Positions 1,769-59,193 of a DNA stretch of 64,000 nucleotides are shown in pieces. Positions within the stretch are counted from its first letter, which is position 1. The number at the start of each line of letters is the position of its first letter. The DNA comes from a virus, in the IMG/VR virus record IMGVR_UViG_3300032007_000018, positions 8,445 through 72,444 of that record. One strand, given 5' to 3'. A model generated the notes under the pieces. That model was given only the letters and a program-made list of their open reading frames with translations, was not told the DNA's origin and ran no database searches. Both the position numbers and the translations under genes were made by a program.

Positions 1769-2035
1769 ATGGCTATGAAGGAAAATTCTAAGAAGGTTCT
1801 TGAGTATTTGAAGACTATTAACGGTCAGGACGTTACCGCTGCTGATGTTGCCGACGCTCTCGGTCTTGAAAAGCGCTCTGTTGATGGTATTTTTACCTCT
1901 GCTATCCAGCGCAAGGGTCTCGGTATCCGTACCCCTGCTGAGATTGAGCTTGACGATGGCACCCACAAGGCTGTTAAGTTCCTTTCTCTTACCGATGCAG
2001 GTATGGCATTCGATCCCGATGCCGATGCTGAGTAA
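1769..2035 (+). CDS. Small acidic winged-helix-like DNA-binding protein (88 aa). Strong RBS AAGGAGA; codon usage is GC3-rich like highly expressed genes.
   Basis: ORF track. The wHTH-like segment VTAADVADALGLEKRSVDGIFTSAIQRKGL is flanked by a strong promoter and terminator. Confidence 0.65.
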   Translation: MAMKENSKKVLEYLKTINGQDVTAADVADALGLEKRSVDGIFTSAIQRKGLGIRTPAEIELDDGTHKAVKFLSLTDAGMAFDPDADAE

Positions 2036-2050
2036 TTAAAGCATAAATTA

Positions 2051-2087
2051 TGCGGGGTGGGTTAATCGCCCACTCCGCATTTTTTAT
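2051..2087 (+). terminator. Rho-independent terminator (stem tgcggggtggg/cccactccgca followed by a T-run).
   Basis: Inverted repeat plus TTTTTTAT immediately after the TAA of CDS 1769..2035. Confidence 0.7.
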
Positions 2088-2088
2088 A

Positions 2089-3078
2089 ATGATTATCCTA
2101 TATGTACTTATCGGCCTACTTGTAGGAAGTCTTGGGATCTATTTACTACTTAGGCCGAAATTAAAAATTACTGCTCAAAAAAATATTGCTATAGAATAGG
2201 CAAATCAATAGCTTGAAATTCAAAATAGTAATTTGCTTGATGTTCAACAACATCGCAAAGAATTATTAGATAAAACAACTCAAGAATATCATGAAATGGG
2301 AGCCAAAAGAGAAGAAATCAAAAAGGCTCTTGAAGATTTGCGCGAAACATAGCAAAAAGCCGCTGAAGACTTATATAGTTAGGCTTTAAATATTGCCGAA
2401 AATTCATATGAAAAAGAAATTGACCGAATTAGTGATGACTTATTTCAACATCGCGAAGAAGCGAAAAATCTTTACCTTCAAGTCACTGAAGAGGCCGTCC
2501 AAGAGTTTGAAGAAGCTATTGAAGAAAAAGAAAAAGAATTTTCATATTGGAATGGACGAATTATTGCCTTACAAAAAGATGTATAGGTCGCTCTTGAAGC
2601 GGCTTAGCGCAAACTCGCCATGGAAACATAGCAAGACTATTATCGTGTATGTCTATCCGATGAAGATGTTACAGAGATAAAACGCTTGCGCGAAGTGCTT
2701 CCATATTTGCGCGACAAAACTCCATTGAATAAAGTTATTTATAAAGTTTATTATGAACGACCATTAACAGACATGATTGGCAGAGTGGTCGGAACTGGTG
2801 TTCATACTGGTATTTATAAAATTACTAACATTAATAACGGAATGTGTTATGTAGGCCAAGCCGCAAACATTGCAGATCGCTGGAAACAGCATTGTAAACG
2901 CGGTGTTGGCGCAGAAGACTGGACCCAGAATAAACTTTACCCAGCTATGTATTCTCTTGGAGTTGAAAATTTTACTTTTGAGATTGTTGAAGAATGCAGT
3001 AGAGATGCTCTCAATGAGAGAGAAGATTATTGGCAAGATTATTTTCACGCAAAAGATTTTGGATATAGTATAAAATGA
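2089..3078 (+). CDS. Membrane-anchored protein: N-terminal TM helix, coiled-coil region (DUF4041-like) and a C-terminal GIY-YIG/T5orf172-like nuclease domain. It contains 8 in-frame TAGs, translated here as Gln.
   Basis: Frame 1 is continuous from ATG 2089 to TGA 3078 if TAG is sense. N-terminus IILYVLIGLLVGSLGIYLLL; C-terminus GIYKITNINNGMCYVGQAANIADRWKQH...NEREDYW. Track ORF 2686..3078 is only the C-terminal fragment. Confidence 0.6.
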
Positions 3079-4188: not shown

Positions 4189-4533
4189 ATGTCATTGAAA
4201 CAAGATTTTATTAGTTATGTTGAAAGCAATTTTAGCAAGAACCCTATGCCCGAAAATTTAACTGAATATTGGGAAAAATTTAAGGGCGGCTCCAGCGGCG
4301 GAGATAAGCCGCAGTTTACCGAGAACGGTAAAAAAATTCTAACTTTCCTCCAGATGAATGCAGCTACTCGCACATGGAAGTCAAAAGATATCGCGGATGA
4401 AATGTTTATTTCTTCTCGCACAGTATCTGGCGCCATCCGCAAGCTGGTAACTGACGGATATGTGGAGAAAGTTGGTCAAGACCCTACAATATATTGCATT
4501 ACCGAAAAAGGAATTAATGCACAAATTGAGTAA
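4189..4533 (+). CDS. Winged-helix (MarR-like) DNA-binding protein, 114 aa.
   Basis: ORF track. wHTH segment DIADEMFISSRTVSGAIRKLVTDGYVEKV; RBS AAGAGG. Confidence 0.65.
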   Translation: MSLKQDFISYVESNFSKNPMPENLTEYWEKFKGGSSGGDKPQFTENGKKILTFLQMNAATRTWKSKDIADEMFISSRTVSGAIRKLVTDGYVEKVGQDPTIYCITEKGINAQIE

Positions 4534-4594: not shown

Positions 4595-5521
4595 TTGATA
4601 AATATGATCAATGTTACAGAGGTTTCTATACAAGACTATTTTAATAAAAATGAAGAAGATAAGCAAAAATTTTATGATTTGATTTTAATAAATAATAATA
4701 AAGTTTCATCTAATACTCATTATAAAACGGTTATTTCGCCTGCGCCGCAAGCAAAAATCCCAGAAAAATTTTTTCATCAATTACAAGGCAAATTAAAATA
4801 TATTGCTCCACTACGAAAAAAGCATAAACAAAATGGTGGACTATCATTTTTAACCCTATGCGATTGTGGATAGTGGCATATTTTAGATGCGATAGATTTC
4901 AGAAAAGAAAAATAGACAATGTGTCCAACATGTAAATATAATAATATGACAACTATGAAGAATATTTCTGGATAGATTTTTGGATAGCTTTAGGCAATAC
5001 GCCCATCATCAAAACGTGGTTCTGATGGTTCTGTATATTGGATTTGTCAGTGTATAGATTGCGGTAATCAGTAGGAAGTAATTAAATATAATTTAACTAA
5101 AAAAGGTCATTTATGTGCTGTTTGCGGAGAAAAATCTAAAGGAGAATATAAAGTTGCTCAAATGCTTTAGGAAAATAATTTATGTTTTATAAGAGAAAAA
5201 ACATTTGAAGATTGTTTATTCCCAGATTCTTTCGCTCATGCAAAATTTGATTTTTTTGTAGATAATAAATATATTATTGAGATTGATGGATAGCATCATT
5301 TTTTTCCAGTGAAATATGGAAAAAATATAAGCGATCAAGATGCAAAATTATTATATAATAAAGTCCTTAATCACGATAGATACAAAAACCAATATTGTTT
5401 TTTGCATCAAATTCCTATTATTAGAATACCTTATTTAGCTATAGAAACTTTAAAGATAGAAGATTTAATGGTTGAAACAAGTAAATTTTTATTATATAAT
5501 ATAAGTATAAAAAATAATTAA
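4595..5521 (+). CDS. Putative freestanding homing endonuclease: repeated Zn-ribbon DNA-binding modules (YWICQCIDCGN) plus a C-terminal DUF559/Vsr-like PD-(D/E)xK nuclease domain. About 9 in-frame TAGs.
   Basis: Track ORFs 4595..4873 and 5309..5521 are in the same frame and the intervening frame is open except for TAGs. C-terminal FDFFVDNKYIIEIDGQHHF...IIRIPY. Paralog of CDS 15928..16809. Confidence 0.6.
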
Positions 5522-5535
5522 GGAGAATAATAATT

Positions 5536-6468
5536 ATGAAAACTATGATAAATAGCACACATGTCGAGGGCTTAGTTTACGAATCTACTCTTGAGCTTCG
5601 CGTTTCCGGCGAGAATTCTAAGAATCCCGGCACCGAGTTCATTATGGGTAATTTGAACATTGCAACTGATAATGACTGCACAAATATCGTTCCAGTGCAT
5701 TTTACTTATGTGACCGCAACTACTTCCAAGGGTAATGCAAATGCTACCTTTGGCGTCCTCAAGGACATTATTGATGGTAAGATTGGGACCGTTATGGCTA
5801 ATGGCGCAGAGAATGCGGGCAAGGTTCGCATCGATTCTGCTATCGGTCTTAATGAGTTCTATTCCGATAGAAATGGTAAGGAAGAGCTTGTAAGTGCAAA
5901 GCGTAATGAGGGTGGATTTGTTCATACTGTCGCTACTCTGAACGAAGACGAAAAAGCTCGTAATACTTTTACTGCTGATATGCTGATTACCAGCGTAACT
6001 CATGTTGATGCTGACGATCTTAAGGGAACTAAAGAGAAGGCTCTTGTTCGCGGCTGCGTTTTTGACTTCCGCAAAGCAGTTCTTCCTGTTGAGTTCTCTG
6101 TAACCAATGCTCGTGGTATGGATTATTTTGAGGGACTTGATGCTTCTCCTAAGACTCCTGTATTTACCAAGGTTTGGGGCCGTCAGGTTTCTAAGACCGT
6201 GACCAACGAGAAAATTGAGGAGTCTGGTTGGGGCGAAGCTAACGTTCAGACAAGCACCAGTACTCGTCGTGACTGGGTTATCACTGGTAGTAATACTGAG
6301 CCTTATGAGTGGGATAGCGAAGAGACTATCACAGCTAAGGAACTCACCGAGGCTATGGCAAATCGTGAAGTATATCTCGCTGGCATTAAGCAGCGTTAGG
6401 ATGAGTATAAGGCAAGTAAGGCTGCTGCTCCCGCGGCGGCTCCTGCCACAGGTGGGTTCAACTTCTAA
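5536..6468 (+). CDS. Hypothetical abundant protein (310 aa; possibly an ssDNA-binding partner of the downstream Sak4-like ATPase). It reads through the TAG at 6397 and ends with ...GGFNF at TAA.
   Basis: ORF track 5536..6399 plus an in-frame extension. Codon usage is GC3-rich and highly biased. It lies immediately upstream of the recombination ATPase. Confidence 0.55.
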
Positions 6469-9958: not shown

Positions 9959-12099
9959 TGTTAGTCTTTGATAAACAAGAAATAAGAGACAGTTTATCAA
10001 TCGACGATATTTTTGACCTTCTAGAAGAGTGGGGCGGTGAGCCAGAACATTGTCCAACTGGCCTCATCGCCCGTACTATTTGTCATAACTTGCTAACAGA
10101 TGAAGCATCACGCAAATTATATTATTACGAGAACACTGGGCTATTTAGATGTTATACAGGGTGTGAAGATCCAGTCTTCGACATTTTCCAACTCTGTATA
10201 AAAGTAATGAATCTCCAGCATAATGTCGTATACGATTTAAATGATGCGGTCAGATGGGTGGCAAGAAGATTCGGTTTATCTGGCAGAGAAGAAGATAGCC
10301 CAGAAGAAGAAGGACTTGAGGATTGGAAAATTTTAGCAAACTATTCACGTATTTAGGATATACAAACTGCAGCTCCTCATGTCGTTCTCGAAGAATATGA
10401 TGATACAATTCTAACTCGATTTAATTATAATGTAAAGATAAAACCTTGGCTTGATGAAGGCATTTCTCAATAGGCGATTGAGCATGCCGAGATTGGCTTC
10501 TATCCAGGAGATGCACAAATCACTATTCCACATTTTGATAAGAATGGCAGATTTATCGGTCTGCGCGGACGCACAGTAGTTGCGGAAGATGCAGAAAAAT
10601 ATGGCAAGTATCGTCCCATAAAAGTCAATGGGCAAATGTATAATCATCCCCTTGGATTAAATCTTTATAATTTCAATAATAGTCGTTGTATTATTCCAAA
10701 GATGCGTAAAGCGATTGTTTTTGAGGGTGAACTATTCGCCCTAGTCTACTTTTCCCAGTTGCTACTGGGGGTCTGCGCGAAGGGAAAAATTCCCGTCAAT
10801 TTTTGGAAAGGCGCAGGCTAACGGGGAAGCCTAAAAATTTTATAAATTCATGGTAATCCCGTGGGAAAATCTGTTTAAACATCTAACTTCATTTTTCATA
10901 TATCAGTGAGAAAAGGAGTTGATTGTATGAACGTTATTTATGCTTATAAAAAGAAAAGTATAGATAAGATTGTTTATGTTGGTTAGACAAATAATTTAGA
11001 ATATAGACATAAACAACATATTTATTATGATCCATTTAATATTAATAATCCAGAGTATGAATATCCTCTTAGTAGAGGAATTCGTAAATATGGCGAAGAA
11101 GAATATTAGTTAATTGTTTTAGAAGAAAATATTCCAGATGATAAAATAAATGAACGAGAAATTTATTGGATAAAATATTATAATACATATTTTGATGGTT
11201 ATAATCAATCTACTGGTGGCACTAGCCCAGTAAAACCAATATATACAGATGATGAAGTGAATTAGGTAATTGAAATGTTAAAAGATGAAAGTTATTCATT
11301 TAATGATATTTCAAAGAAAACAGGATTTTCGTTAACTCATATTTATAATATAAATACTGGAAAAAGGCGCCCACAGCCAAATATACAATATCCAATTCGT
11401 TCAAATAAAACAAAAGGGACAAAAGGATTAAAATTTTCTCCGGAAGAGTGTAAAAAAATTCACGAAGAAATATTAAAAAATGATAAAACATTAAAAGAAC
11501 TTGGAGAAATGTTTAACTGTTCTTCTTCAACAATATCTGATATTATTAATGGAAAAACTTAGGCATATAAATTAGAAGGTTATTCTTATCCATTAAGAAA
11601 TAATCGTTCTATAGGGGCTAAATAGATGTGGAAAAACAGATAAACCTGTATCGACTATCCCGATAAAGGGAGTAGGAGTATTATTAGCACATACTCCGAA
11701 ATAGTAGCAGTTTTAAAAACTGGAAGATATAGTCAGTGCCGTTGGAAACAATGGAATAACACGGAAAAAAGTTGTTTGTTGTATCAAACATATTTTGGAT
11801 TTGAAAATGATATTTCTGTCGCTTGTTGCGGCAGTAGCTTATCTTCCTATCAGACGCAACTTCTTATTGATGCCGGGGCGCAAGAAATTATCGTCGCTTT
11901 TGATAGATAGTTTCAAAATGTTGGTGATGATGAATATTGCCATTTAGTAAATAATCTAAAAAAGATTCAAATGAAATATAAGAACTATGTAAATATCTCT
12001 TATATCCTCGATCGCAAGAAGATAACCGGATATAAGTGCAGTCCAATTGATTGCGGACGAGAAAAATTTTTGGTATTATATAAGGAGAGGGTTCAGTGA
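9958..12099 (+). CDS. dnaG: DnaG-like DNA primase split by an intron. Exon 1 is 9958..10728 (CHC2 Zn-finger CPTG..H..C..C and the start of TOPRIM ...AIVFEGE). Exon 2 is ~11764..12099 (KSCLLYQTYFGFENDISVACCGSS...LLIDAGAQEIIVAFDRQ). Both exons are in frame 1 and carry TAG=Gln codons.
   Basis: Zn-finger and TOPRIM motifs were read from the translation. The two exons join in frame across a 1035-nt insert (a multiple of 3). Confidence 0.55.
10729..11763 (+). mobile_element. Group-I-like self-splicing intron inserted in the primase TOPRIM region, carrying a GIY-YIG homing endonuclease ORF.
   Basis: R-like element ...ATCGACTATCC (~11652-11663) and S-like element AAGATATAGTCA (~11717-11728) can pair (GACUA/UAGUC) to form P7. 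The 5' splice site follows a T and the 3' splice site follows a G. Stop codons TAA lie in every frame between the exons. Confidence 0.5.
10927..11565 (+). CDS. GIY-YIG homing endonuclease (I-TevI-like) inside the intron, with 3 in-frame TAGs.
   Basis: NVIYAYKKKSIDKIVYVG(Q)TNNLEYRHKQH...YPLSRGIRKYGEEEY(Q)LIVLEE...EREIYWIKYYNTYFDGYNQS. TAG falls on the conserved Gln of YVGQT. Confidence 0.75.
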
Positions 12100-15927: not shown

Positions 15928-16809
15928 ATGATAGGTTCTGTTTTTGGAAGTTATCTTGTCTTAGAATAGGATAAAGTCTCACATCCATCTGCGGCCGCAC
16001 GCTACTGGAAGATTAAATGTATTTATTGTGGAGAGGAAAAGATTATCCGTTCTGATACATTAAAAAAATGCCCTATTTGTAAATGCCAAAAAGATAAGAT
16101 GATAGGGAATACTTTTGGAGATTTTTTAGTATTAGAAAAATCTAAAGAAAAAGCAAAAGATAATTGTTTAAAATATAAATGCAAATGCATTCATTGTGGC
16201 AATATTGAAGAAGTGGCAAGTAATGTATTAAGATCTCAACGTAAGCACTGTAGCAATTGTCATATTCGTGCATCAACATTAATTGATTTAACCGGTAAAA
16301 CATATGGATTTTTAAAAGTTTTATATAGAGATACTAATCCAATTTATATGGGACACGAAAATGATGCTTATTGGGTGTGCCAATGCTTAAAATGTGGTAG
16401 TATAAAAACAATCAGAGGTTATTCATTACGGAATGGATTAACACAGTCATGTGGCTGTATTAAAAGTTTTGGTGAAGAACAAATCGCCACAATATTAACA
16501 AATAATAATATTCTATTTTAGCGGGAATATATATTTAATGATTGTTATTTAACTAATAAAAAAAATAAATTACGATTTGATTTTGCTATTTTTAATACTG
16601 ATGGCACTCTATCTCATCTTGTTGAATACGATGGTAAACAACATTTTGAAGAAAATATACGAAATAGCGGCTGGAATACAAAAGATAATTATTAGCAAAC
16701 CCATTTACGAGACGAGTATAAAAATAATTATTGCCAATCTCATCATATTAAGTTAATTCGTATAAGATATAATGAAGAAATAACCTTATAGAAAATATTA
16801 GGAGAATGA
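15928..16809 (+). CDS. Putative freestanding homing endonuclease, paralogous to 4595..5521: three Zn-ribbon modules (YWKIKCIYCG, KCKCIHCGN, YWVCQCLKCGS) plus a DUF559/Vsr-like nuclease domain. 3 in-frame TAGs.
   Basis: ATG 15928 (RBS AAAGGAGG) is in-frame with track ORF 16099..16521 and continues past TAG to TGA 16809. C-terminal FDFAIFNTDGTLSHLVEYDGKQHF. Confidence 0.6.
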
Positions 16810-18736: not shown

Positions 18737-21700
18737 ATGAAGTCATACTTCGGAGTTCATAATCATACAGCCGTGGGTTCAAATATTAGACTTATTGACT
18801 CAATCAACAAACCAGCAGACCTCATCGACAAAGCGATCGAGTTAGGACTCTCTGGGATTGCGATAACAGATCATGAATGTCTTTCGGCTCACGTAGAGGC
18901 TGAAAAGCATATGGCAGAAATAAAGGAAGCGCATCCAGATTTTAAACTGGCATTCGGCAATGAGATTTATCTTGTTGATGAAAGAAAACCAGGTCAAAAA
19001 TATTATCACTTTATTTTAATTGCCAAGGATGCACTAGGTCATCGCGCACTTCGAGAACTAAGTTCAAGGGCGTGGATGAATTCGTATGTGGACCGCCGTA
19101 TGGAGCGTGTTCCAACTACGAAAGAGGAGTTAAAAGAGATTGTAAATAAGTTCAAAGGTCATTTGATTGCAACAACCGCTTGTATTGGTGGAGAATTGCC
19201 AACTCTCGCATTGACTTATACAAAAGCAAGAATGGTAAATGATAACAACAATGCAATGTATTATTACAAAGAAATTGACAAGTTTTTGAACTATTGTTTG
19301 GAACTATTTGGAGAGGATTTTTACATTGAGTGCGCGCCGGGAACGGCCCCAGATCAGGTGGCGGCAAATAAAGCCTGTCGGAAAATTTCAGATTTTTATG
19401 GTATTAAAATGGTAGTCGGGACAGATGCGCACTACCTAGATAAAGACGCAAGGGCCGTTCATAAGGCTTACTTAAACTCCAAGGAAGGAGACCGCGAAGT
19501 CGATGCGTTTTATGAGTATACCTACCTTATGGATTACGATGAAGTTACGAATCTATTAGGTTTTACTTTTGATGGAGATATGGATTATGCATATCAAGTA
19601 GCGGATAACACTCTAGCAATACAAGAGAAGATACAAATGTATTCTCTCTTTCACAAACAAGATATCCCATCAGTAGAAGTACAGAATTATCCAAAGTCCG
19701 CGTGGTGGGGAGTAAATAACGACTACGCGAATGAAATGGAAAAGTACCCAACCTTAAAGAAACTATTCACATCTGACGATATTCAAGATAGATATTGGGT
19801 AAATCAATGTTGGGATAAACTCAACGAGATTGGCCATGGTTGGGATAATTATAATGAAACTGGCGATGATCGTTATCTCGTGGAGCTTGAAGAAGAGGCG
19901 CGAGTAAAGAGTGTCATTAGTGAAAAGTTAGAAACAAATATGTTCCGTTATCCAAATACACTTCAACACTATATTGATTTGATTTGGGATTGCGGTTCGA
20001 TGGTAGGTGCCGGACGAGGTTCATCTTGTGCGGCGTTAAACCATTATTTGATGGGTATAACGCAGTTAGACCCGATTGAATGGGAGCTTCCATTCTTCCG
20101 TTATTTGAACGACGAGCGTGTTGAATTAGGCGATATTGATATTGATATCTGTCCTTCCAAGTGCGGTCTCGTCTTACAGAAGATTGCGGCTGAGCGCAGT
20201 CAGATGTTTAATGATGATGTTCCGGAATGGGCGAAGAAGTTGTTTGGTTGTACGAGAATCTCAACTTTTGGAACTGAAGGAACAAAGTCGGCAGTTTTGA
20301 CAGCGTGCCGTGGTTATCGGTCTGAGGATTATCCCGATGGAATTGATGTTGATGAAGCGCAGTATATGGCATCATTGATTCCTCAAGAGCGTGGATTCTT
20401 GTGGCCGATTAAAGATGTTATCGAAGGAAATGAAGAGAAGAATCGTAAGCCAGTAGCAAGTTTCATTCGAGAAATCAATAATTATCCGGGACTTCTGGAT
20501 ATTGTTAAAGGTATTGAAGGCTTGGTAAGTAAGCGTAGTTCTCACGCATCAGGTATCGTTCTTTTCGATGGTGACCCATTCGAGCATAGCGCTTTTATGA
20601 AAACTCCAAAAGGAGAAATCATTACTCAATATAATCTGCACGATGCAGAGTATATGGGATTAACAAAATATGACTTCCTGGTAACAGAAGTTCAAGATAA
20701 AATCGTTCAAACAATCCAGTTCCTCCAGGAGGATGGAGAGATTGAAAAAGATTTAAGTCTGCGCGAAGTCTATAATAAGTATCTGCATCCAAGCGTATTG
20801 CCGATTAAAACAGATACAAAAATGTGGGATGCATTGGGCGATGTATCGGTTATCAATACATTCCAATTCGATAGCGCAGAGGGATCAAAGGCAGCAAAAC
20901 AATTAAAACCACGAACTATCTTAGAGATGGCCGATGCCAATGGTCTGATTCGTCTGATGGGCGAGGAAGGGCAGGAGCGCCCGATTGATAAGTATTATCG
21001 TTATAAAAATGATATTAGTTTGTGGTACGAAGAGATGGATAACTTTGGTTTGACAAAAGCAGAACAGAAAACTTTGGAGCCATATTTTAAACCATCTTAT
21101 GGTGTTCCACCTAGCCAAGAGCAGTTAATGAAGATGCTGATGGATCCAAACATCTGCGGATTCACCTTGGGAGAGGCGAACAACGCACGTAAAATCGTCG
21201 GTAAGAAGCAGATGAAAAAGATTCCAGCACTTCGTGAGCAGGTTCTCAAGCAGGCGAAGAGTCCGCGTCTCGGCCAGTATATTTGGAGATTTGGGGCTGG
21301 GCCGCAGATGGGTTATTCATTCTCTGTTATTCACGCACTCGCATATAGCTTCGTCGGGGCGCAAACATTGTATCTCGGCACTCATTGGAATCCAATCTAT
21401 TGGGATACGGCATGTCTGGTGGTTAATAGTGGTTCTCTTGAGGACGCGGTTGATGAAGACGGTGAAGCGCTCTATGATGAAGAGATAGAGGAAGAAGCTA
21501 CCGATGATAAGAAAAAGAAAGCAACAAGTACTGACTATGGTAAAGTCGCAAAAGCATTGAATGATATTATCAATGCCGGTATTAACGTCAGTCTTGTGAA
21601 TATAAACGGTTCTGACTTTGGTTTTAAGCCAGACGTAAAGAACAATCGAATCCTCTTTGGTATGAAAGCATTACTGAATGTAAATGATGATTTGGTAAAA

Positions 21701-22747
21701 CGAATCATTGATAATCGTCCATATAGAGGAATTAAAGATTTTTATAAAAGAATCAAGCCAACTAAGCAAGCAATGGTCTCTCTTATAAAGGCTGGCGCCT
21801 TTGATGATATGATGGAGAGAAAAATTGCGATGGCATGGTATATCTGGGAAACTTGCGATAAAAAATCAAGATTGACTTTGCAGAATTTCCCAACGTTAGT
21901 AAAACAAGATATGGTTCCGAAGGATACGCCAGAAAGAGAGGCCGCGTATTCAATATATGAATTTAATCGGTATCTTAAAGCCATATGTAAAACTAAAGAG
22001 TATCCTAATGATTATCGCCTTGATCCTCGCGCAATTGAATTTCTTTATAAGATGGGATTTGAAAATCTGATAGTAGATGATAATCTTTTGGATATGAAGA
22101 AATGGGATAAGAAGTACCAAGGATTCATGGACGTATTCAGAGAGTGGCTGCGCGCAGACGGCGATGAGATTCTAAATGAACTTAATACGAGAATTTTCAA
22201 AGCCGACTGGGACAAGTATGCAGGCGACGCAAATTATTCTGCATGGGAAATGGAAGTTCTTTGTTTCTATAAGCATGAACACGAACTCGCGCATGTTGAT
22301 ATGAAGAAATATGGTTTGAGTAATTTCAGCGAGTTGCCAGAAGATCCAGAAGTAGAGAGAACATTCTACAAGGCAAATAAAGCAATCAATATATTCAAAC
22401 TGAGCCGTATTGCAGGAACCTGTATAGCAAAAAATAAAGTAAAGAGCGTAGTTACAATTCTAACAACTGATGGCGTTGTTAATGTCAAGTTCAGAAAAGA
22501 ATATTTCGCATTGTTCGATAAGAGAATTTCTGAGCGTGGCGAAGATGGTGTAAAGCACGTCGTTGAAAAGAGTTGGTTTGATAGGGGAAGTATGATTATG
22601 GTACAGGGTATCCGGTCTGGTGATACATTCATCACAAAGAAGTATGCATCAACAGTTGGGCATCAATTGTATCATATTATTGAAGTAACTCCAAGTGGAG
22701 ATTTGATTCTTCAGAACGAAAGATATAAAGGGGAGGGTGGAGAATGA
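18737..22747 (+). CDS. dnaE: DNA polymerase III alpha subunit (DnaE-type, N-terminal PHP domain), 1336 aa, with no in-frame TAG.
   Basis: N-terminal PHP motifs (HNHT...ITDHE) and length. An uninterrupted 4-kb ORF with RBS AAGCGGAGG. Confidence 0.75.
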   Translation: MKSYFGVHNHTAVGSNIRLIDSINKPADLIDKAIELGLSGIAITDHECLSAHVEAEKHMAEIKEAHPDFKLAFGNEIYLVDERKPGQKYYHFILIAKDALGHRALRELSSRAWMNSYVDRRMERVPTTKEELKEIVNKFKGHLIATTACIGGELPTLALTYTKARMVNDNNNAMYYYKEIDKFLNYCLELFGEDFYIECAPGTAPDQVAANKACRKISDFYGIKMVVGTDAHYLDKDARAVHKAYLNSKEGDREVDAFYEYTYLMDYDEVTNLLGFTFDGDMDYAYQVADNTLAIQEKIQMYSLFHKQDIPSVEVQNYPKSAWWGVNNDYANEMEKYPTLKKLFTSDDIQDRYWVNQCWDKLNEIGHGWDNYNETGDDRYLVELEEEARVKSVISEKLETNMFRYPNTLQHYIDLIWDCGSMVGAGRGSSCAALNHYLMGITQLDPIEWELPFFRYLNDERVELGDIDIDICPSKCGLVLQKIAAERSQMFNDDVPEWAKKLFGCTRISTFGTEGTKSAVLTACRGYRSEDYPDGIDVDEAQYMASLIPQERGFLWPIKDVIEGNEEKNRKPVASFIREINNYPGLLDIVKGIEGLVSKRSSHASGIVLFDGDPFEHSAFMKTPKGEIITQYNLHDAEYMGLTKYDFLVTEVQDKIVQTIQFLQEDGEIEKDLSLREVYNKYLHPSVLPIKTDTKMWDALGDVSVINTFQFDSAEGSKAAKQLKPRTILEMADANGLIRLMGEEGQERPIDKYYRYKNDISLWYEEMDNFGLTKAEQKTLEPYFKPSYGVPPSQEQLMKMLMDPNICGFTLGEANNARKIVGKKQMKKIPALREQVLKQAKSPRLGQYIWRFGAGPQMGYSFSVIHALAYSFVGAQTLYLGTHWNPIYWDTACLVVNSGSLEDAVDEDGEALYDEEIEEEATDDKKKKATSTDYGKVAKALNDIINAGINVSLVNINGSDFGFKPDVKNNRILFGMKALLNVNDDLVKRIIDNRPYRGIKDFYKRIKPTKQAMVSLIKAGAFDDMMERKIAMAWYIWETCDKKSRLTLQNFPTLVKQDMVPKDTPEREAAYSIYEFNRYLKAICKTKEYPNDYRLDPRAIEFLYKMGFENLIVDDNLLDMKKWDKKYQGFMDVFREWLRADGDEILNELNTRIFKADWDKYAGDANYSAWEMEVLCFYKHEHELAHVDMKKYGLSNFSELPEDPEVERTFYKANKAINIFKLSRIAGTCIAKNKVKSVVTILTTDGVVNVKFRKEYFALFDKRISERGEDGVKHVVEKSWFDRGSMIMVQGIRSGDTFITKKYASTVGHQLYHIIEVTPSGDLILQNERYKGEGGE

Positions 22748-26712: not shown

Positions 26713-26986
26713 ATTAGTTATTGGTGTTAGTATGTTTTCTATGAGTCAAAATATTTATAGAGTAGATGGAGATAAAATAGAAACTCTAGCAGCAACAGAT
26801 TTAGAGCAGATCCCTGAAGCTGTAAACGCTTTAATGGGCAAGTTTGAAGATATTGATGAAATTGAACTTGATGGCCCAAATAAATATATTGAAAAATATG
26901 GTTATGATATTTTATTAGAATTAGAAAAAAATTATGCTGAAAGAAATGTGAGGGTAAAATTAAATGGCACGTTATTTAATCAATGA
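26705..26986 (+). CDS. Hypothetical protein (93 aa).
   Basis: ORF track. Confidence 0.45.
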   Translation: MAKLVIGVSMFSMSQNIYRVDGDKIETLAATDLEQIPEAVNALMGKFEDIDEIELDGPNKYIEKYGYDILLELEKNYAERNVRVKLNGTLFNQ

Positions 26987-27212
26987 TGTAACTACATATA
27001 GAGTTGGAACTGTTGAGGAAGTAGAAGAGCTGCATCAAGAACTGCTCAATGATAATACTTTTGAACTTACAGCTTTTAGTTATACAACGAAGTATATCAA
27101 AGTAAAAGGTGAAATCGCAGAAGAGTATCAGGTAGTAAAGGCTAAGAAAGTATTTAATAATGAAAAGGAGCCTGATACTGACGTAGAAGTTAAGTATGAG
27201 GTGAATTTCTGA
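26964..27212 (+). CDS. Hypothetical protein (82 aa).
   Basis: ORF track. Confidence 0.45.
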   Translation: MARYLINDVTTYRVGTVEEVEELHQELLNDNTFELTAFSYTTKYIKVKGEIAEEYQVVKAKKVFNNEKEPDTDVEVKYEVNF

Positions 27213-28296: not shown

Positions 28297-28770
28297 ATGG
28301 CAATTTTAATTGGTAGCAAAATACTTGCTAGCGATATAGTTAATGGTCTTGGTAAAGTATAGACAGGTTCTTATACTGGAACAGGAGCTAGTGGTTCTAG
28401 TAGAAAAAATTCTATTACTTTTAATTTTACTCCAAAATTCGTATTGTTTTTTGGCGGAGGTCACTATGCCTCAAGTATCTGGGGGGATGTTGGGTATACC
28501 GGTGCTAATACTGGTTTTTCTTTTTGGATAAATACCGATCCAAACGTTATTTTTTTAGGTCCAGAATTAGATTTTAGTGATTAGCAAACCATTTATACTT
28601 CAGATTATACTAAAGCCTCTTTATCTGGAAATACATTATATTTTTGGACAGAGACAGGATCAGCGCAATCACCGGGGGCATATACCTAGAGCGGAAGCTA
28701 TGTACAAAATGCTTCTGGTCTACAATTAAACGTCTATAACCTTAAATATAGATGGGTAGCTTTTGGTTAA
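28297..28770 (+). CDS. Hypothetical beta-rich protein (157 aa, 3 TAGs).
   Basis: ATG with RBS TAAGGAGG; frame open to TAA apart from TAGs. Confidence 0.45.
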
Positions 28771-28783
28771 GGAGATAAAAAAT

Positions 28784-29185
28784 ATGGAACTTAAAGAACT
28801 ATTAACTACAATTACACAAACTGTAATTATTCCTCTTTTAATTGCTTTAGTTGGCTATGCCGTTAAATGGCTTAACGCAAAAGCTAATGAGATTAAGACA
28901 AAAACAAAAGATGAAACTACAAAAAAATACATTTCGATGCTTAATGATACAATTGTATCTGCGGTAATTGCTGTAAATCAGACGTATGTAGATGCACTTA
29001 AAGAAAAAAATGCTTTTGATATTGAAGCATAGAAAGAAGCATTTAATAGGGTATATGAAACTATTATCGCAACAATGACAGAGGAATCTGACAGATATTT
29101 AAGTGAAGCTATTGGCGATTTAGATGAATATATTAAAACAAAAATTGAAGAAGCGGTAAAAGAACATAAACTCGTAAAATAGTAA
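28784..29185 (+). CDS. Small membrane protein (1 TM; holin-like candidate) that reads through TAG 29030 to TAA 29185.
   Basis: RBS AAGGAGAT. TM segment LLTTITQTVIIPLLIALVGYAV. Confidence 0.45.
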
Positions 29186-29231: not shown

Positions 29232-29696
29232 TTATAATTGTTTATTAAACTTTTCAACTACACTCGCGTGTAAGGCATCTCCTCTATGGTTGCCACCAAG
29301 TCCTTTATAAGCAGCATAATCTTCCTCAAACTGCGCGTATTCTTGAATGGTGATAACATGGTCTGGCTTTAATAGTTCTTCACACATATCTCTAAACTAT
29401 TTACCTTGGATAGATAAAATCCCAGTATTTAAATTTTCAATAGCAACAAAAATTGAACTTATCTCTTTATTAATCCTATCGTCTTCTTCTCGCAGCATTG
29501 CTACTTCGTCTTCTCGTTCTTGAATCAATCTATCCATAACTTCACTTTTAGCCTTCTCTTCGCGTTCTTTCCATTTCTCTTCAAAAGCGGCTTTTTGTAA
29601 TTTTACATAATGCTTAGCAAATAATGCAATTCCACCAGCTATAAGCATGCAAAGCCAATTAACCCAATACTTTGCAATCCATTCTAAAACTTCCAT
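29232..29696 (-). CDS. Membrane-anchored coiled-coil protein (i-spanin-like candidate), 154 aa, TAG at 29397.
   Basis: Track ORF 29397..29696 continues in-frame through TAG to TAA at 29232. N-terminal TM plus EEKWKEREEKAKSE coiled coil. Confidence 0.45.
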
Positions 29697-29788
29697 TGTA
29701 TCAAACTCCTCCTTTTATTTTGCTGTGGAAATTTATCAACCCTTTCAAAATATTTAAGTATTATGATACTACATTTAGTAAGTTCTGC

Positions 29789-29813
29789 CCGTTGGGAAAA
29801 ATTTCCGGAAATT
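29789..29813. promoter_or_regulatory. 25-bp palindromic motif GGGAAAAATTTCCGGAAATTTTTGG, copy 1 of 2 in the divergent intergenic region.
   Basis: The core AAAAATTTCCGGAAATTTTT is a perfect 20-bp palindrome. Related copies are at 29867..29891 and 10781..10805. Confidence 0.5.
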
Positions 29814-29866
29814 TTTGGGCGAAGAAGGAAAATGAATTAAAACTAAATCTCATATACTATTGCGGA

Positions 29867-29891
29867 AAGGGAAAAATTTCCGTGAATTTTT
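29867..29891. promoter_or_regulatory. Palindromic motif copy 2 (GGGAAAAATTTCCGTGAATTTTTGG), ending 20 nt before the ATG at 29911.
   Basis: See 29789. Confidence 0.5.
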
Positions 29892-29910
29892 GGTAAAAGG
29901 AGGTTTAGCA

Positions 29911-30309
29911 ATGCCATATCAACCACAGAACTATTATTATCAGCCCCCAACAACTCAGCCTCGTTAGCCTTTATTTGGGTTAAAAGGACGTCCAGTGACT
30001 GGGTTAGAAGAGGTAAGGGCTGCCGCAGTTGATTTTGATGGAACAGTTTCATTCTTTCCAGATTTGGCCAATGGAAAGATTTATACAAAGCAATGCAATG
30101 TAGATGGAACTGCATCGCTTAACATGTATGAAATTAAAGAAATCCCTGCGACTCCAGAAGCAAATCCAAATGTTTATGTAACCCGAAAAGAATTTAACTC
30201 CGTAATGGAAAACCTAAAACAGATATTGGCGCATGCTAATCTTGTGGAGGAAAAAAGTCCTGATCAAACTAAATCCGAACAAACTTCTACTCCTGAATTC
30301 AATTTTTAA
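29911..30309 (+). CDS. Hypothetical protein with a Q/P/Y-rich N-terminus (132 aa, 1 TAG).
   Basis: RBS AAAAGGAGG; in-frame with track ORF 29995..30309. Confidence 0.5.
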
Positions 30310-49814: not shown

Positions 49815-49946
49815 ATTGTCTCTCCTTTCTTTAGATTATCCATTATAATATAAAAAGCAATATAAATAAATTACCCCAATCTGGCCTACTAAAAAAAACC
49901 AGATTGGGGTAAAATATTAAAGCAATGATTTACGATATTCTAATTC

Positions 49947-52871
49947 GCTCAACTCGTCTTTTGCAGTTGCTAAAGTATCTCGTGCTAAATTGATTAAGCC
50001 AGTAAAATTATTAGTTAATCTATTAATAGGAGACTAAGCTCCAATCATCTAATAAAGACGTAAAAGAAGCCCATTAATTGAGTTTCTACCATTATTAAAT
50101 CCAGTAATTTCTAATGCTGAATATTCATCCATCTCTATTCCAAGAATAATAGGCCATGGAATAGTATCGGTTGGTGTCTAGAAAGTCCACGGATAACCAA
50201 CACTATGCTAATTTAATAAATCCTGAAATACAACACAAGATCTTTTTACTGCATACTATCCATTTTCGCGCATACTAAAACTTCTATCTATTGTATAGAT
50301 ATCATTTTCATCTAATCTCCAATAGTAACAGTTCATCAAATAAAAATAAGGTACAATAGTAGAAGATATAATAGTATAATAGTCTGTAATGGGAGAAAAA
50401 TCATTTGCAGTCGCAATGCTTAAAGTAGTTTGACTTCTATAAAAATAATATTTATTATCAATAAAAAGGCTGTCCATAATGCTAGTTAATACAACATCCT
50501 AGAAGCGTTGAGCACTATCAAAAAATGATGCTGGCTATTTAGATAGCCATTCTTCAGTTACAAGATAGTAATTATTATCATTCTGATCATAAAAATAATA
50601 ATCCGTTTCTAATGTCCCAGGAGTAAATGAAACTGGAATTTTCTATTTAATATAATAACCAATTACATAAGTGCCTTCACTGGTCAGAACTGGTGTTAAT
50701 GTTTGTTCCAATTCTAAATAATAATATGTCTTAGAAAAATCTGGGATTAAACGAGTTTCTTTCTTTAAATCTAAAGGTGGATTAACAATTCCTTCATCTG
50801 CATAATAATAGTAAATATTAGGCTTATAAATATAACCGGCACCACCAGGACCAGGGAAATCATGAGTTTCACTAATCGTATAATAAGTTTTAGTAAGATC
50901 GGCAGACTCATCCGAAGAAAGAATAATATTTCCATTAGAGTCTAAAACATAATATGTGTCAGGAGTATAAGCATAATCAAAATTCATCGGTTCACTTAAA
51001 GCTAAATCTAAATAATGAGTTTCTTGGTCTGGCGTTATTGCTATTTCAAGTTGATAATCTGTGCCAACTCTTTTCCAATATCTATTAGGTTCATAATTTG
51101 CTAACTAAATAGGAATATATCCCGTTTCGGATAGGTCTTGATACTTTCTATAATAAGTTGCAGTGCTATCAAACTCGTTACTCCTATCATATGCAAGAAA
51201 TACATTTCCATCTATGGTAACATCCGCGTCACGCTAATTATTAACCACTTTATAATATACTAGTGGTCTCCACGTTTCAACATCTAGTGTGATAGGCTCA
51301 TAGTAAATATCAAATGGCGAAGTATAATTTAATATTCCTTTATAAAAATACTTATCTAATAATTCATAATAATATATTTTATCATAATCCCAATAAACTT
51401 CAATTTCCTATGCACTTGGAAGAGAATTATCTTCAGTATTAACAACAATAATTTGACCTAAACGATCATGTAAAGTATTTATTGTACCGGCTAAAGTGGA
51501 TAAATCACGAGTTTTTCCACCAAGACTATAATCTCCATTTTCAATATAATGTTGTTGCAATGGAGAATACCATTTAACATCCAATGCTCGTTTATGTTCT
51601 CCTGACTCCGCACCAGTGCCATATAGCATATCATAAACATCTGAAATAGCATTTCCAATAGCAGGTAAACTAATTGATAATTCTTGCATATCAGCACTAG
51701 CAACTTCATCTTGTATAAACTAAGAATCTTTATAGCGATTTTCAAAATTAGAACTTTTACCTGTTGGTGCAACTTTAATTTCATTAGGAGTAGATTCATC
51801 ATATGTTCTAATTGTTTTGTCAAATCCATCTTTATTATAGTAAATTGCACCATCTACTTCTTCTTCTTCTGTTTCATAATCTCCCAAAGAATAAAAGAAT
51901 GTTTTTTGTTTTATTTTTTCATCCGAGGGTTCTCCTTCTTCAGCACTTTTTATTCTAAAGCCCCAAGGAGATTGCATATGCATTTTATAAAATCCATCTA
52001 AACTATCGGCGCCCTAGAATGGAGCTACAGGCTCATCGGTTGGAGGTTCTGCAACAACTGCAATTCCAGGAGTTACAGGATTTAAATGAGCTATTAATAC
52101 ATAACGCTCATTTCCTTCACCAACAACCTTTTCCCAAACAGTGCTATCGTATCCACGATAAAGAATACCCCACGTATCATCGATGTCTTTATAATGCTTT
52201 AAATCAAATGTATATCTCTTAAAATAATTATCTAATACACTTTCATTATCTTCATCAGCTTGCGAACTATATAAAAATAATGGTCTAAATTTAGCCACAT
52301 CAGGATTAGATTCACTATCTGGACCAATACATATATAGAAATCATCGGTGTAAGCTAATGGTTCTGGATTATTAATATCGCTATTATTTGTTATACCATT
52401 ACATCTGCGATGAACTATTTCGCCTTGAGTAATACCGCTCGTTGAAGCAAGGACATGATCACTAGTCATTTTGTAGTATGATTCATGTTCAACAAAAGAA
52501 CCAACCTTATAATAAAAACCATTTTTTTGAATATAGTATTTATTTATATCTTCTGCCATAGGTTCTGCTACTAATTCATAATTAGTATAAACAAAAGGTT
52601 TAGTACACTACGCATCAGCATAGAGAATTAAATCATCATATGTAGTTGGAGATATGGTTTGATCTTGGCTATCAGAGTAAGCTACACGATAATCGCTACT
52701 AATAACACCAATGCTATTCAAATCTTCGTCATATCCATAACTAACTAAAACAAAACGACCTGGGGCAATTCCGTCTCTCTACATTCCATCTTCCATAGCA
52801 TATCGAGAGGTATAGATTTTATCAAACTAAAAAGTAGTATGAGTAGTATTTGTTCTATTACCATAAAACAT
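49947..52871 (-). CDS. Large virion structural protein (~974 aa), TAG-dense (>=10).
   Basis: Track ORFs 50256..50477, 50643..50987, 51408..51689, 51720..51983 and 52014..52559 are all in the same frame. The gaps I checked are open apart from TAG. ATG 52871 has RBS GGGGGAGGGA; stop is TGA at ~49947. Confidence 0.45.
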
Positions 52872-58983: not shown

Positions 58984-59193
58984 AATCAAAAACTCCTTTT
59001 TTTCCATTTTTATATATAAAATACTCAAGCGAATCGAGCATATATACCATATTGATTCTATGCGGAAACATTAACCGTAAGAATTCCACTATTGTAATCT
59101 ATAACACGCGTTGCATTGTTTGGATTAGAATGTCTATCGCCGACTGGAGCGACAGGTCCTAGTTGAAAGCGTTCACAATATACCATAAACTAA

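What the first reader, a model, noticed from the sequence alone, without database searches (positions are those of the whole stretch)
10781..10805. A 25-bp palindromic motif (core AAAAATTYCCGNNAATTTTT) occurs three times: twice in one divergent intergenic region and once inside the primase intron
Copies at 29789..29813 (a perfect 20-bp palindrome) and 29867..29891 lie between the divergently transcribed genes 29232..29696 (-) and 29911.. (+). The second ends 20 nt before the start codon, so they could be operators for a dimeric regulator. The winged-helix proteins 1769..2035 and 4189..4533 are candidates. The third copy, 10781..10805, is in the intron between the 5' splice site and the homing endonuclease gene. 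It might be a promoter/operator for that gene or simply an intron P2-like hairpin.
Basis: seen in the sequence. Interest (0 to 1): 0.55.

Follow-up and report, generated by a model that had tools for sequence, protein, structure and literature searches.

The report
Late-gene control motif, copied into intron
The 25-base A/T-rich inverted repeat is real and conserved. Two copies bracket the promoter and start the mRNA of one phage gene. The third is a copy of that mRNA leader lodged in the tip of a hairpin of a mobile intron, so this is an ordinary kind of regulatory element with an unusual passenger copy.

Summary
The motif GGGAAAAATTYCCGNNAATTTTTGG occurs exactly three times, at 10782-10806, 29794-29818 and 29869-29893, all on the + strand, against 0 expected by chance. 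The window is a phage that reads TAG as glutamine.

About 20 uncultured relatives keep copies 2 and 3 in the same divergent intergenic region, and only there.
- **Copy 2** lies between the upstream boxes of two divergent promoters of a phage-specific class (GGNMRAA-N27-YATATA). Its end is always 42-45 nt from the predicted transcript start. Its A/T tracts swap A for T without compensation. I read it as a DNA-level upstream promoter element.
- **Copy 3** is transcribed. It supplies the loop and 3' strand of a stem-loop at the 5' end of the mRNA, then a U-rich stretch and a strong ribosome-binding site. The stem shows compensatory changes and survives 60-70-nt loop insertions.
- **Copy 1** is a copy of that leader (33/39 identical). 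It is inserted at the tip of a peripheral hairpin of the group I intron in the primase gene, and only in one intron lineage. The homing endonuclease has its own promoter 90 nt further on.

The operator/winged-helix idea is possible for copy 2 only, and is untested. No transcript ends were mapped.

The parts
29794..29818 (+). Copy 2 (distal). It contains a perfect 20-bp palindrome at 29797-29816. I read it as a non-transcribed upstream promoter element made of two A(n)T(m) tracts around CCGG.
   Evidence: Searches give the exact match. Searches show it conserved at the same place in about 16 relatives, mostly as CCAAAAATTTCCGGAAATTTTTGG. The A/T tracts swap A for T without compensation in L057, L060, L061, L062 and L072. 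Its 3' end is 42-45 nt from the first base of the leader stem in every lineage: 13 of 16, and L061, L063, L052, L053 and L079 by hand count on the sequences.
29817..29823 (+). Upstream box GGGCGAA of the + promoter. Its first two bases are the last GG of copy 2.
   Evidence: the pattern GGNMRAA-N25-27-CATAWA occurs 6 times against 0.47 in shuffles. Four of the six (10863, 15860, 29817, 39290-) point at a gene start. Relatives have GGACAAA, GGTCAAA or GGGCAAA here.
29850..29856 (+). -10-like TCATATA of the promoter of gene 29911. No -35 hexamer is recognisable.
   Evidence: A YAWAWA hexamer ends 4-6 nt before the leader stem in all relatives, including distant ones that lack the motif (L047, L048, L076, L085).
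29863..29882 (+). Stem-loop at the predicted 5' end of the mRNA: CGGAAA (29863-68), loop GGGAAAAA, UUUCCG (29877-82). The left half of copy 3 is its loop and 3' strand.
   Evidence: predict it in every lineage. One search lists the stems: CGGAAA/UUUCCG, CGGGAA/UUCCCG, CGGAAAA/UUUUCCG, UGGAA/UUCCA, (U/C)GGAAAGA(A)/(U)UCUUUCCG. One search shows the closing stem kept around 60-70-nt insertions in L052 and L079. One search is the shuffle control.
29869..29893 (+). Copy 3 (proximal). It is transcribed and forms the first ~30 nt of the 5' leader. Its right half KGAAUUUUUGG stays single-stranded and runs into the ribosome-binding site GGAGG at 29899-29903. The ATG is at 29911.
   Evidence: The right arm is 11 nt after the stem and 16-22 nt before the ATG in all lineages.
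29784..29790 (-). Upstream box of the divergent promoter, GGGCAGA on the - strand. It is followed after 27 nt by TAAATA (29751-29756, - strand).
   Evidence: Relatives have GGGCAAA, GGACAAA or GGCCAAA 4 nt from the palindrome, then an A/T hexamer at the same spacing and a purine-rich leader.
29232..29696 (-). Divergent gene of 154 aa with an N-terminal hydrophobic segment (read by eye as a transmembrane helix) and a charged, repeat-like middle region. Function unknown. It lies next to the holin gene 28763..29185.
   Evidence: phrog_4257 and phrog_4105, both of unknown function; holin phrog_13712 next door.
29911..30309 (+). Gene served by copies 2 and 3: 132 aa, function unknown, containing in-frame TAG.
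   Evidence: phrog_21718; more than 300 unnamed homologues. The structure model was too poor to use (pLDDT 54).
10782..10806 (+). Copy 1, a copy of the leader (copy 3 type) inside the primase intron.
   Evidence: over 39 nt it is 33/39 identical to the leaders of L056, L058 and L050, 31/39 to this genome's own leader and 27/39 to its own distal copy.
10770..10819 (+). Second peripheral hairpin of the intron (P2.1-like). The stem is 10770-10778 paired with 10811-10819, and copy 1 forms the tip.
   Evidence: -23.9 kcal/mol, z = -2.95; the homologous intron in L019 has a plain 6-bp hairpin with a U-rich loop here, and L020/L021 have an unrelated 8-bp A/U stem. The motif is therefore a lineage-specific insertion (window, L017, L018); 10774 and 10815 changed together (U-A to A-U).
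10729..11763 (+). Group I intron splitting the primase Toprim region. Exon 1 ends at 10728 (...FEG) and exon 2 starts at 11764 (EKSCLLYQ...).
   Evidence: the exons match phrog_47 at profile positions 30-241 and 253-333. P1 is AGGGU (10724-28) paired with GCCCU (10738-42), P2 is 10754-10769, the 3' part contains AAGAUAUAGUC, and the terminal G is at 11763. Rfam finds nothing here.
10927..11643 (+). GIY-YIG homing endonuclease gene inside the intron, with 5 in-frame TAG codons.
   Evidence: PF01541 plus helix-turn-helix domains; homologues in L017-L021.
10863..10903 (+). The endonuclease gene's own promoter-like site: box GGGAAAA (10863-69), then N27, then TTTTCATATAT (10893-10903).
   Evidence: the exact 11-mer occurs only at 10893, 15890 and 39250(-), each upstream of a gene. 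One search shows the box at the same spacing.

Best explanation
The motif is the cis-regulatory signature of one transcription unit (gene 29911 onward) of a TAG-recoded phage. Its three copies do three different jobs.

**Copy 2 (29794-29818) acts as DNA and is not transcribed.**
- It lies between the upstream boxes (GGNMRAA) of two divergent promoters of a phage-specific class that has no recognisable -35 hexamer.
- It spans roughly -46 to -70 of each promoter.
- I infer that its two phased A(n)T(m) tracts with fixed G/C positions (CC...CCGG...GG) bind a protein or bend the DNA, and so help RNA polymerase at both promoters. The protein could be a phage activator or the alpha-subunit C-terminal domain of RNA polymerase.

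**Copy 3 (29869-29893) acts as RNA.**
- Transcription is predicted to start about 7 nt after TCATATA.
- The first bases (CGGAAA) pair with the UUUCCG inside the motif.
- This gives a stem-loop at the very 5' end of the mRNA, followed by single-stranded GAAUUUUUGGUAAAAGGAGG.
- I infer that this stabilises the message and favours translation.

**Copies 2 and 3 are paralogues.** In some lineages, including this one, they appear to be homogenised by gene conversion.

**Copy 1 (10782-10806) is a copy of the leader.**
- It landed in the tip of a peripheral hairpin of the mobile group I intron.
- There its A/U arms simply extend the hairpin.
- It is most likely a tolerated passenger rather than the operator or promoter of the homing endonuclease, which has its own promoter.

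**Shown:** positions, conservation, spacing, covariation and the origin of copy 1.

**Inferred:** transcript starts, the binding partner, and the effects on stability and translation.
For: **Restricted, conserved location**
- There are exactly three copies.
- All five IMG/VR hits to the motif are the orthologous site upstream of the same gene.
- A looser 17-mer scan finds related 128-172 kb contigs only at this locus.

**Promoter class**
- GGNMRAA-N27-CATATA occurs 6 times against 0.47 in shuffles.
- The exact TTTTCATATAT occurs three times, always upstream of a gene.
- The -10-like hexamer is kept at a fixed offset in all relatives.
- The minus-strand promoter has the same layout.

**Copy 2 as DNA**
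- Its end is 42-45 nt from the leader stem in 19 lineages, although the spacer sequence is unrelated: 13 of 16, the rest by hand count.
- A/T swaps are not compensated.
- In L052, L053 and L079 the left half and the centre are lost, but the right arm keeps its position.

**Copy 3 as RNA**
- A stem is predicted in every lineage.
- Compensatory pairs are seen: A-U to G-C, and C-G to U-A through U-G.
- In four lineages an AA to UC change destroys the palindrome but lengthens the stem.
- The stem persists around 60-70-nt insertions.

**Copy 1**
- It is absent from the homologous introns L019-L021.
- It is 33/39 identical to the leader type.
- The hairpin stem shows a compensatory change.
Against: **No experimental anchor**
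- No transcript 5' end has been mapped. The promoter and the 5'-terminal position of the stem are inferred from conservation only.

**Copies 2 and 3**
- A single protein binding both copies as DNA would explain their 23/25 identity more simply than duplication plus gene conversion.
- The right arm of copy 3 (GAATTTTTGG) is more conserved than a simple A/U-rich spacer needs to be.
- Individual stems are short (5-9 bp) and only modestly better than shuffles (3-283 of 2000 shuffles did as well).

**Copy 2 alone**
- The other three promoters of the class have no such palindrome, so it is not a general requirement.

**Copy 1**
- Its arms are unchanged between two introns whose hairpin has otherwise diverged about 9 times faster than the rest of the intron. 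That could mean the arms are selected.
- An A/T hexamer (TTTATA, 10839-44) lies at the class spacing downstream of copy 1. An intron-internal promoter is therefore not excluded.
Confidence: 0.5

Rival explanations
1. **Operator model.** One dimeric DNA-binding protein, phage winged-helix or other, binds all copies as double-stranded DNA. Copy 2 would control the divergent promoters. Copy 3, at +5 to +30, would block transcription of gene 29911. Copy 1 would block or time transcription through the intron.
For: - Copy 2 is a near-perfect 24-bp inverted repeat in most relatives, with invariant CC, CCGG and GG spaced one helical turn apart.
- Copies 2 and 3 are 23/25 identical here.
- Their spacing is exactly 75 bp in 9 of 16 lineages (8 distinct sequences) despite unrelated spacer sequence.
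- A winged-helix protein is encoded at 4189..4533.
- The arms of copy 1 are conserved while its centre diverged.
Against: - The left arm of copy 3 follows RNA pairing and not the palindrome.
- Loop lengths vary from 4 nt to about 70 nt.
- Spacing between the copies is 66-83 bp across lineages, which is not in helical phase.
- L052, L053 and L079 lost the centre and left half of copy 2.
- The L017 intron copy lost CCG.
- Both winged-helix proteins occur in many phages that lack the motif.
Confidence: 0.2
2. **Attenuator model.** Copy 3, and copy 1 in the intron, are weak intrinsic terminators: a hairpin followed by a U-run. They would stop most transcripts about 35 nt after the start until a late antiterminator acts. 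This resembles the short terminated transcript from lambda PR'.
For: - The consensus scan flags 29860-29885 plus ATTTTT, and 10782-10794 plus GTCAATTTTT, as terminator-like.
- The hairpin followed by GAAUUUUU is conserved in all lineages.
Against: - The stems are weak and A/U-rich (z = -0.3 for the leader).
- The U-run is only 5 nt and is separated from the stem by 3-4 purines.
- A terminator inside the intron would cut off primase exon 2.
- No antiterminator was identified.
- The true terminator nearby (29185-29232) is of a very different quality.
Confidence: 0.08
3. **RNA-level trans model.** The motif is a binding site for an RNA-binding protein, or for another copy of itself. Because it is quasi-palindromic, the intron copy can pair with the leader copy at 17 of 20 positions. 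The primase pre-mRNA or the excised intron would then modulate translation or stability of the gene 29911 mRNA.
For: - Copy 1 derives from the leader and not from the upstream element.
- Both are on the transcribed strand in the same orientation.
- The 17/20 pairing is seen directly in the sequences.
- The leader copy abuts the ribosome-binding site.
Against: - Copy 1 exists in only one intron lineage, while the leader is conserved in about 20.
- In L017 the centre of the intron copy has diverged.
- The A/U-only arms give a weak duplex.
- No RNA-binding protein was identified.
- This model does not explain copy 2.
Confidence: 0.07
4. **Host-factor model.** Copy 2 is a site for a host global regulator of Firmicutes such as CodY, whose box is AATTTTCWGAAAATT. 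This would tie late-gene expression to host nutrition.
For: - The core contains AAATTTCCGGAAATT, 12/15 identical to the CodY box.
- L066 has AATTTTCCGGAAAATT.
- CodY-like proteins accept A/T-rich arms with variable spacers (PMC9318921).
- The polymerase's closest isolates infect Firmicutes.
Against: - Matches with up to 3 mismatches are no more frequent than chance in the window (7 against 12.4 expected).
- The symmetry is 16 bp with a CG centre, where the CodY box has 15 bp with a W centre.
- The full palindrome occurs in none of 185,579 bacterial and archaeal genomes.
Confidence: 0.05

Closest known systems
Late or middle promoters inside phage T4 group I introns that drive the intron-encoded endonucleases I-TevI, I-TevII and I-TevIII (from my own knowledge, not checked in a paper here)
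   Same: A GIY-YIG homing endonuclease gene sits in a group I intron of a phage replication gene. It is preceded, inside the intron, by a promoter-like site identical to those of other phage genes (TTTTCATATAT at 10893, 15890 and 39250-). The intron carries host-phage regulatory sequence.
   Different: The motif under study is not that promoter. It is a copy of another gene's mRNA leader placed 90 nt upstream, in a structural hairpin. Timing of expression is unknown. The promoter consensus differs from T4's TATAAATA.
5'-terminal stem-loops that protect bacterial and phage mRNAs, such as the E. coli ompA leader, the T7 gene 10 leader and Bacillus 5' stabilisers (from my own knowledge)
   Same: The stem is predicted to begin at or within about 1-2 nt of the transcript start. 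It is followed by an A/U-rich single-stranded stretch and a strong ribosome-binding site. The stem is conserved by covariation and not by sequence.
   Different: No half-life or 5' end data exist. The loop and 3' flank are unusually conserved in sequence and are duplicated upstream as DNA.
UP elements and upstream activator sites of promoters without a -35 element, for example the phage phi29 protein p4 sites between divergent promoters (from my own knowledge)
   Same: This is an A/T-tract-rich element at a fixed position, about -46 to -70. It lies upstream of a promoter with no recognisable -35 hexamer and is shared by two divergent promoters.
   Different: It has invariant G/C positions (CC, CCGG, GG) that a plain UP element would not need. 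It has no sequence similarity to p4 sites, and no activator is identified. The other three promoters of the class lack it.
CodY box AATTTTCWGAAAATT (PMC9318921)
   Same: It is an A/T-rich palindrome with AATTTT and AAAATT arms, and it matches the box at 12 of 15 positions.
   Different: The symmetry is 16 bp, against 15 bp in the CodY box. The match is at chance level in this window. The palindrome is absent from bacterial genomes.

Membership tests
Operator for a dimeric DNA-binding regulator | An inverted repeat whose two half-sites are conserved symmetrically at a fixed spacing | tested here: inconclusive
   Met for copy 2 in about 13 lineages, with a 24-bp palindrome and fixed CC/CCGG/GG positions. 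Not met in L052, L053 and L079, where the centre or left half is lost. Not met for copy 3, whose left arm diverges and whose loop is 4-70 nt.
Operator for a dimeric DNA-binding regulator | A cognate protein that binds the site | not testable with these tools
   The winged-helix candidate 4189..4533 has Pfam HTH_27 and MarR_2 hits. Both candidates are far more widespread than the motif.
5'-terminal stabilising stem-loop of an mRNA leader | Base pairing maintained by compensatory changes | tested here: met
   The stems are CGGAAA/UUUCCG, CGGGAA/UUCCCG, UGGAA/UUCCA and GGAAAGA/UCUUUCC. The closing stem is kept around large insertions.
5'-terminal stabilising stem-loop of an mRNA leader | The stem starts within a few nucleotides of the transcript 5' end and prolongs mRNA life | not testable with these tools
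   The -10-like hexamer ends 4-6 nt before the stem in all lineages. This is consistent, but no 5' ends or half-lives are available.
Upstream promoter element (UP-like or activator site) | A fixed position upstream of the core promoter, independent of the spacer sequence | tested here: met
   The distance from the end of copy 2 to the leader stem is 42-45 nt in 19 lineages with diverged spacers (13 of 16, the others by hand count). The upstream boxes of both divergent promoters flank it.
Upstream promoter element (UP-like or activator site) | Stimulates transcription by contacting RNA polymerase or an activator | not testable with these tools
Intrinsic (rho-independent) terminator | A G+C-rich stem immediately followed by a U-tract of about 7-9 nt | tested here: not met
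   Only the permissive scan flags the copies. The stems are mostly A/U, the U-run is 5 nt after 3-4 purines, and the folding z-score is -0.3.
CodY box | A 15-bp palindrome AATTTTCWGAAAATT with few mismatches, enriched above chance | tested here: not met
   The best match has 3 mismatches. The window has 7 such sites against 12.4 expected. The motif's symmetry is 16 bp.
Group I intron peripheral hairpin (context of copy 1) | A group I intron: P1 with a U-G pair at the 5' splice site, a terminal G, conserved core, and exons that rejoin in frame | tested here: met
   P1 pairs AGGGU with GCCCU. The exons match phrog_47 at positions 30-241 and 253-333. The junction FEG|EKS is in frame. The 3' part contains AAGAUAUAGUC. 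The Rfam model did not match, so the subgroup is unassigned and splicing is not demonstrated.
Group I intron peripheral hairpin (context of copy 1) | A hairpin present in homologous introns with variable sequence, to which the motif is an addition | tested here: met
   L019 has a 6-bp stem with a U-rich loop, L020 and L021 have an 8-bp A/U stem, and the window and L017 have a stem plus the motif. A compensatory change is seen at 10774/10815.

The most novel reading that the evidence does not exclude
A mobile group I intron has captured the 5' leader of a phage late gene. Through that copy, the primase pre-mRNA or the excised intron would talk to the late mRNA. It could do this by direct pairing of the two quasi-palindromic copies (17 of 20 positions) or by competing for the same leader-binding factor. 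Either way, this would couple replication-gene splicing or endonuclease expression to late-gene translation.
Probability: 0.05. Interest if true: 0.7.

Novelty: new member of a known kind. Interest (0 to 1): 0.35.

Why it matters
This gives a first sketch of transcription signals in an uncultured family of roughly 130-190 kb phages that read TAG as glutamine:
- a two-part promoter class (GGNMRAA-N27-YATATA);
- one promoter with an extra shared upstream palindrome;
- a structured mRNA leader.

These are testable handles for asking when recoded genes are switched on.

The intron-borne copy shows that mobile introns in these phages pick up regulatory sequence of their host genome. That parallels T4, where intron endonucleases use phage late promoters.

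None of this changes current concepts. The value is annotation and a set of concrete experiments.

Tried and rejected
**Searches that found nothing or were uninformative**
- Megablast of both regions against 50,697 phage records: no match.
- Rfam at gathering and permissive thresholds: no intron and no other RNA family.
- tRNA scan: none.
- Literature search for the motif as a string: only unrelated NF-kappaB probes.
- Exact scans of 185,579 bacterial and archaeal genomes for the palindrome and for the leader: no match, so there is no host or prophage lead.
- Pfam on ten further small proteins of the window: no regulator found.

**Ideas tested and dropped**
- CodY box: chance-level match.
- Winged-helix co-occurrence with the motif: both proteins are conserved in more than 100 contigs, far beyond the motif-bearing clade, so this says nothing either way.
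- Structure of the gene 29911 product, to look for a nucleic-acid-binding fold and possible autoregulation: pLDDT 54, unusable, so no fold search was run.
- DNA looping between copies 2 and 3: spacings of 66-83 bp are not in helical phase across lineages.
- A second + strand promoter upstream of copy 2: rejected, because the A/T-rich -10-like sequences there belong to the minus-strand promoter.
- The endonuclease recognising the motif as an operator, as I-TevI does: the exon junction (its homing site) bears no resemblance to the motif.
- DNA invertase or recombination site: considered from memory of hix and gix sites only. The copies are direct and 75 bp or 19 kb apart, and no recombinase was seen. 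Not pursued.
Full report
**1. The observation**

The 25-mer GGGAAAAATTYCCGNNAATTTTTGG matches exactly at 10782-10806, 29794-29818 and 29869-29893. All three are on the + strand. No further site appears even with 3 mismatches, and shuffles gave none. The 20-bp core of the second copy is a perfect palindrome. The flanks GGG...GG are not symmetric, so the three copies share one orientation.

**2. Context**

The window is a phage that reads TAG as a sense codon.
- With TAG open, long reading frames appear. For example, 59025..63962(-) has 27 in-frame TAG codons.
- The GIY-YIG motif of the intron endonuclease reads YVG-TAG-T, where glutamine is expected.
- There is no near match among deposited phages.
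- The DnaE-like polymerase is 39% identical to those of Enterococcus and Bacillus phages.
- Ribosome-binding sites are of the strong AAGGAGG type, pointing to a Firmicute host.

The primase is split. Exon 1 matches phrog_47 at profile positions 30-241 and exon 2 at 253-333. Between them lies a group I intron.
- P1 pairs AGGGU with GCCCU.
- There is a covarying P2 hairpin.
- The core contains AAGAUAUAGUC.
- The terminal G is at 11763, and the junction FEG|EKS is in frame.
- Rfam does not detect the intron.

**3. Copies 2 and 3 are an old, conserved pair**

- Scanning IMG/VR for the motif returned five loci. All are the orthologous site just upstream of the homologue of gene 29911.
- Protein-based retrieval gave 12 viral and 37 metagenomic loci.
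- About 16 distinct lineages keep both elements. More distant ones keep only the promoter.
- In the large related contigs, a looser 17-mer occurs only at this locus.

So this is a local control region and not a genome-wide signal.

**4. A promoter class**

TTTTCATATAT occurs exactly three times, at 10893, 15890 and 39250(-). Each lies just upstream of a gene that contains TAG, and two of those genes are homing endonucleases. Gene 29911 has the variant TCATATA at 29850.

All four share a box GGNMRAA exactly 27 nt upstream. The combined pattern occurs 6 times against 0.47 in shuffles. Further examples appear in relatives. No -35 hexamer is recognisable.

The divergent gene 29232..29696 has the same layout on the other strand: GGGCAGA, then N27, then TAAATA. 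In relatives the box is GGGCAAA. Some lineages instead have a canonical TTGCAT-N17-TATAAT promoter there.

**5. Copy 2 works as DNA**

- Copy 2 sits between the two upstream boxes. Its terminal GG is the start of the + box, and the - box lies 4 nt from its other end.
- The distance from its 3' end to the first base of the leader stem is 42-45 nt in all 19 lineages, although the intervening sequence is unrelated. One search gives this for 13 of 16. For L061, L063 and L064 the script picked a nearer decoy pairing, so these, with L052, L053 and L079, were counted by hand.
- Within the element the outer CC and GG and the central CCGG are fixed.
- The two 8-bp A(n)T(m) tracts change A for T on one side only in L057, L060, L061, L062 and L072. 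That would break an RNA helix but preserves A-tract DNA.
- L052, L053 and L079 lost the centre and left half but kept the right arm at the same position.
- Given the predicted starts, copy 2 is upstream of both transcripts.

I therefore read it as an upstream promoter element shared by two divergent promoters. Whether it is bound by a phage activator, by the alpha C-terminal domain of polymerase, or acts by curvature cannot be told.

**6. Copy 3 works as RNA**

- The -10-like hexamer ends 4-6 nt before a stem that is predicted in every lineage.
- The stem sequence changes with compensation: CGGAAA/UUUCCG, CGGGAA/UUCCCG, CGGAAAA/UUUUCCG, UGGAA/UUCCA.
- In four lineages a 10-nt insertion and an AA to UC change destroy the left arm of the palindrome but lengthen the stem to GGAAAGA/UCUUUCC.
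- In L052 and L079 the loop carries 60-70 extra nucleotides and the closing stem is kept.
- Each stem alone is only modestly better than shuffles. The argument rests on the compensatory changes and the tolerance of insertions.
- After the stem come 11 invariant nucleotides (KGAAUUUUUGG), then UAAAAGGAGG and the ATG.

This is the layout of a 5'-terminal protective stem-loop plus an A/U-rich, strongly ribosome-binding leader. That function is inferred and not shown.

Copies 2 and 3 are 75 bp apart in most lineages, but 66-83 bp overall. In this genome, L056 and L058, copy 2 carries the GGG flank of copy 3. This suggests gene conversion between paralogues.

**7. Copy 1**

- Homologous introns with the same endonuclease exist in L017 and L018 (96% identical), L019 (78%), and L020 and L021 (68%).
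- All have a hairpin between P2 and the core. Only the window and L017/L018 have the motif at its tip. L019 has a plain 6-bp hairpin.
- Over 39 nt the intron copy is 33/39 identical to the leaders of L056, L058 and L050, 31/39 to its own genome's leader and 27/39 to its own copy 2. So it came from a leader, possibly in another genome, and travels with the intron.
- Between the window and L017, the intron differs at 33 of 1035 positions. Ten of these fall in the 50-nt hairpin.
- The motif centre and the stem changed, one pair with compensation, while both A/U arms stayed.
- In the intron RNA the arms can extend the hairpin.
- The endonuclease has its own box plus TTTTCATATAT promoter at 10863-10903, so copy 1 is not needed as its promoter.
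- A weak candidate promoter (TTTATA at the class spacing, with a poor box) follows copy 1 and cannot be excluded.

**8. Rivals**

- A single dimeric regulator binding all copies as DNA stays possible for copy 2 but fits copy 3 badly.
- The terminator-like call rests on weak A/U stems and a displaced 5-nt U-run.
- The CodY resemblance is at chance level.
- A trans RNA interaction between intron and leader is not excluded, but nothing supports it beyond complementarity.

**9. Verdict**

This is a real, conserved regulatory motif of a known kind: an upstream promoter element plus a structured leader. It occurs in an undescribed phage family, with one copy carried as a passenger in a mobile intron. 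It is useful for annotation and experiment design, but not conceptually new.

Noticed in passing
whole window, e.g. 59025..63962(-), 49917..52871(-), 10927..11643(+): TAG is read as a sense codon, apparently glutamine. Long genes carry 11-27 in-frame TAG codons, while several genes have none, including the 1336-aa DnaE-like polymerase 18737..22747. No suppressor tRNA gene lies in the window.
   Followed up: partly
10863-10903(+), 15860-15900(+), 29817-29856(+), 39290-39250(-): There is a two-part promoter-like class, GGNMRAA-N27-(T-run)CATATA(T). Two of the four sites drive homing endonuclease genes. The same layout is seen in relatives.
   Followed up: partly
15928..16809(+), 4595..5521(+), 2050..3078(+): There are further homing-endonuclease-like genes. 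15928..16809 matches HNH and intron-encoded nuclease PHROGs. 4595..5521 looks similar by eye. 2050..3078 ends in a GIY-YIG-like segment (GIYKITNINNGMCYVGQ). The replication module is heavily colonised by mobile nucleases.
   Followed up: partly
5536..6468(+), 26964..27212(+), 29911..30309(+): Three otherwise unrelated proteins end in a similar C-terminal tail after a low-complexity linker...GGFNF...YEVNF and ...PEFNF. The EFNF end is invariant in homologues of the gene 29911 product. It may be a shared docking peptide.
   Followed up: no
29185-29232: A strong bidirectional terminator (20-bp stem, T-runs on both sides) lies between the holin gene and the convergent gene 29232..29696. It isolates the gene 29911 promoter from upstream transcription.
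   Followed up: no
L139:3427-3464 and L092:78-147: Two unrelated viral contigs carry paired or tandem copies of TTYCCGGRAAWTTTTGG in non-coding DNA. In L139 they lie directly after a terminator and before a promoter-like site. This could be a similar kind of element in other phages, or coincidence.
   Followed up: partly
L052:~1380-1500 and L079:~1395-1500 (leader of the gene 29911 homologue): Two relatives carry 60-70-nt insertions inside the loop of the leader stem-loop, and the closing stem is preserved.
   Followed up: partly
10729-11763: The primase intron is not detected by the Rfam group I intron model, even at E-values up to 10. P1, P2, the terminal G and the AAGAUAUAGUC core element are nevertheless clear. 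The endonuclease gene inside the intron may be what defeats the model.
   Followed up: partly
10770-10819 compared with L017: The intron hairpin that carries copy 1 has diverged about 9 times faster than the rest of the intron between two close relatives (10 of 50 positions against 23 of 985). The changes avoid the A/U arms.
   Followed up: partly
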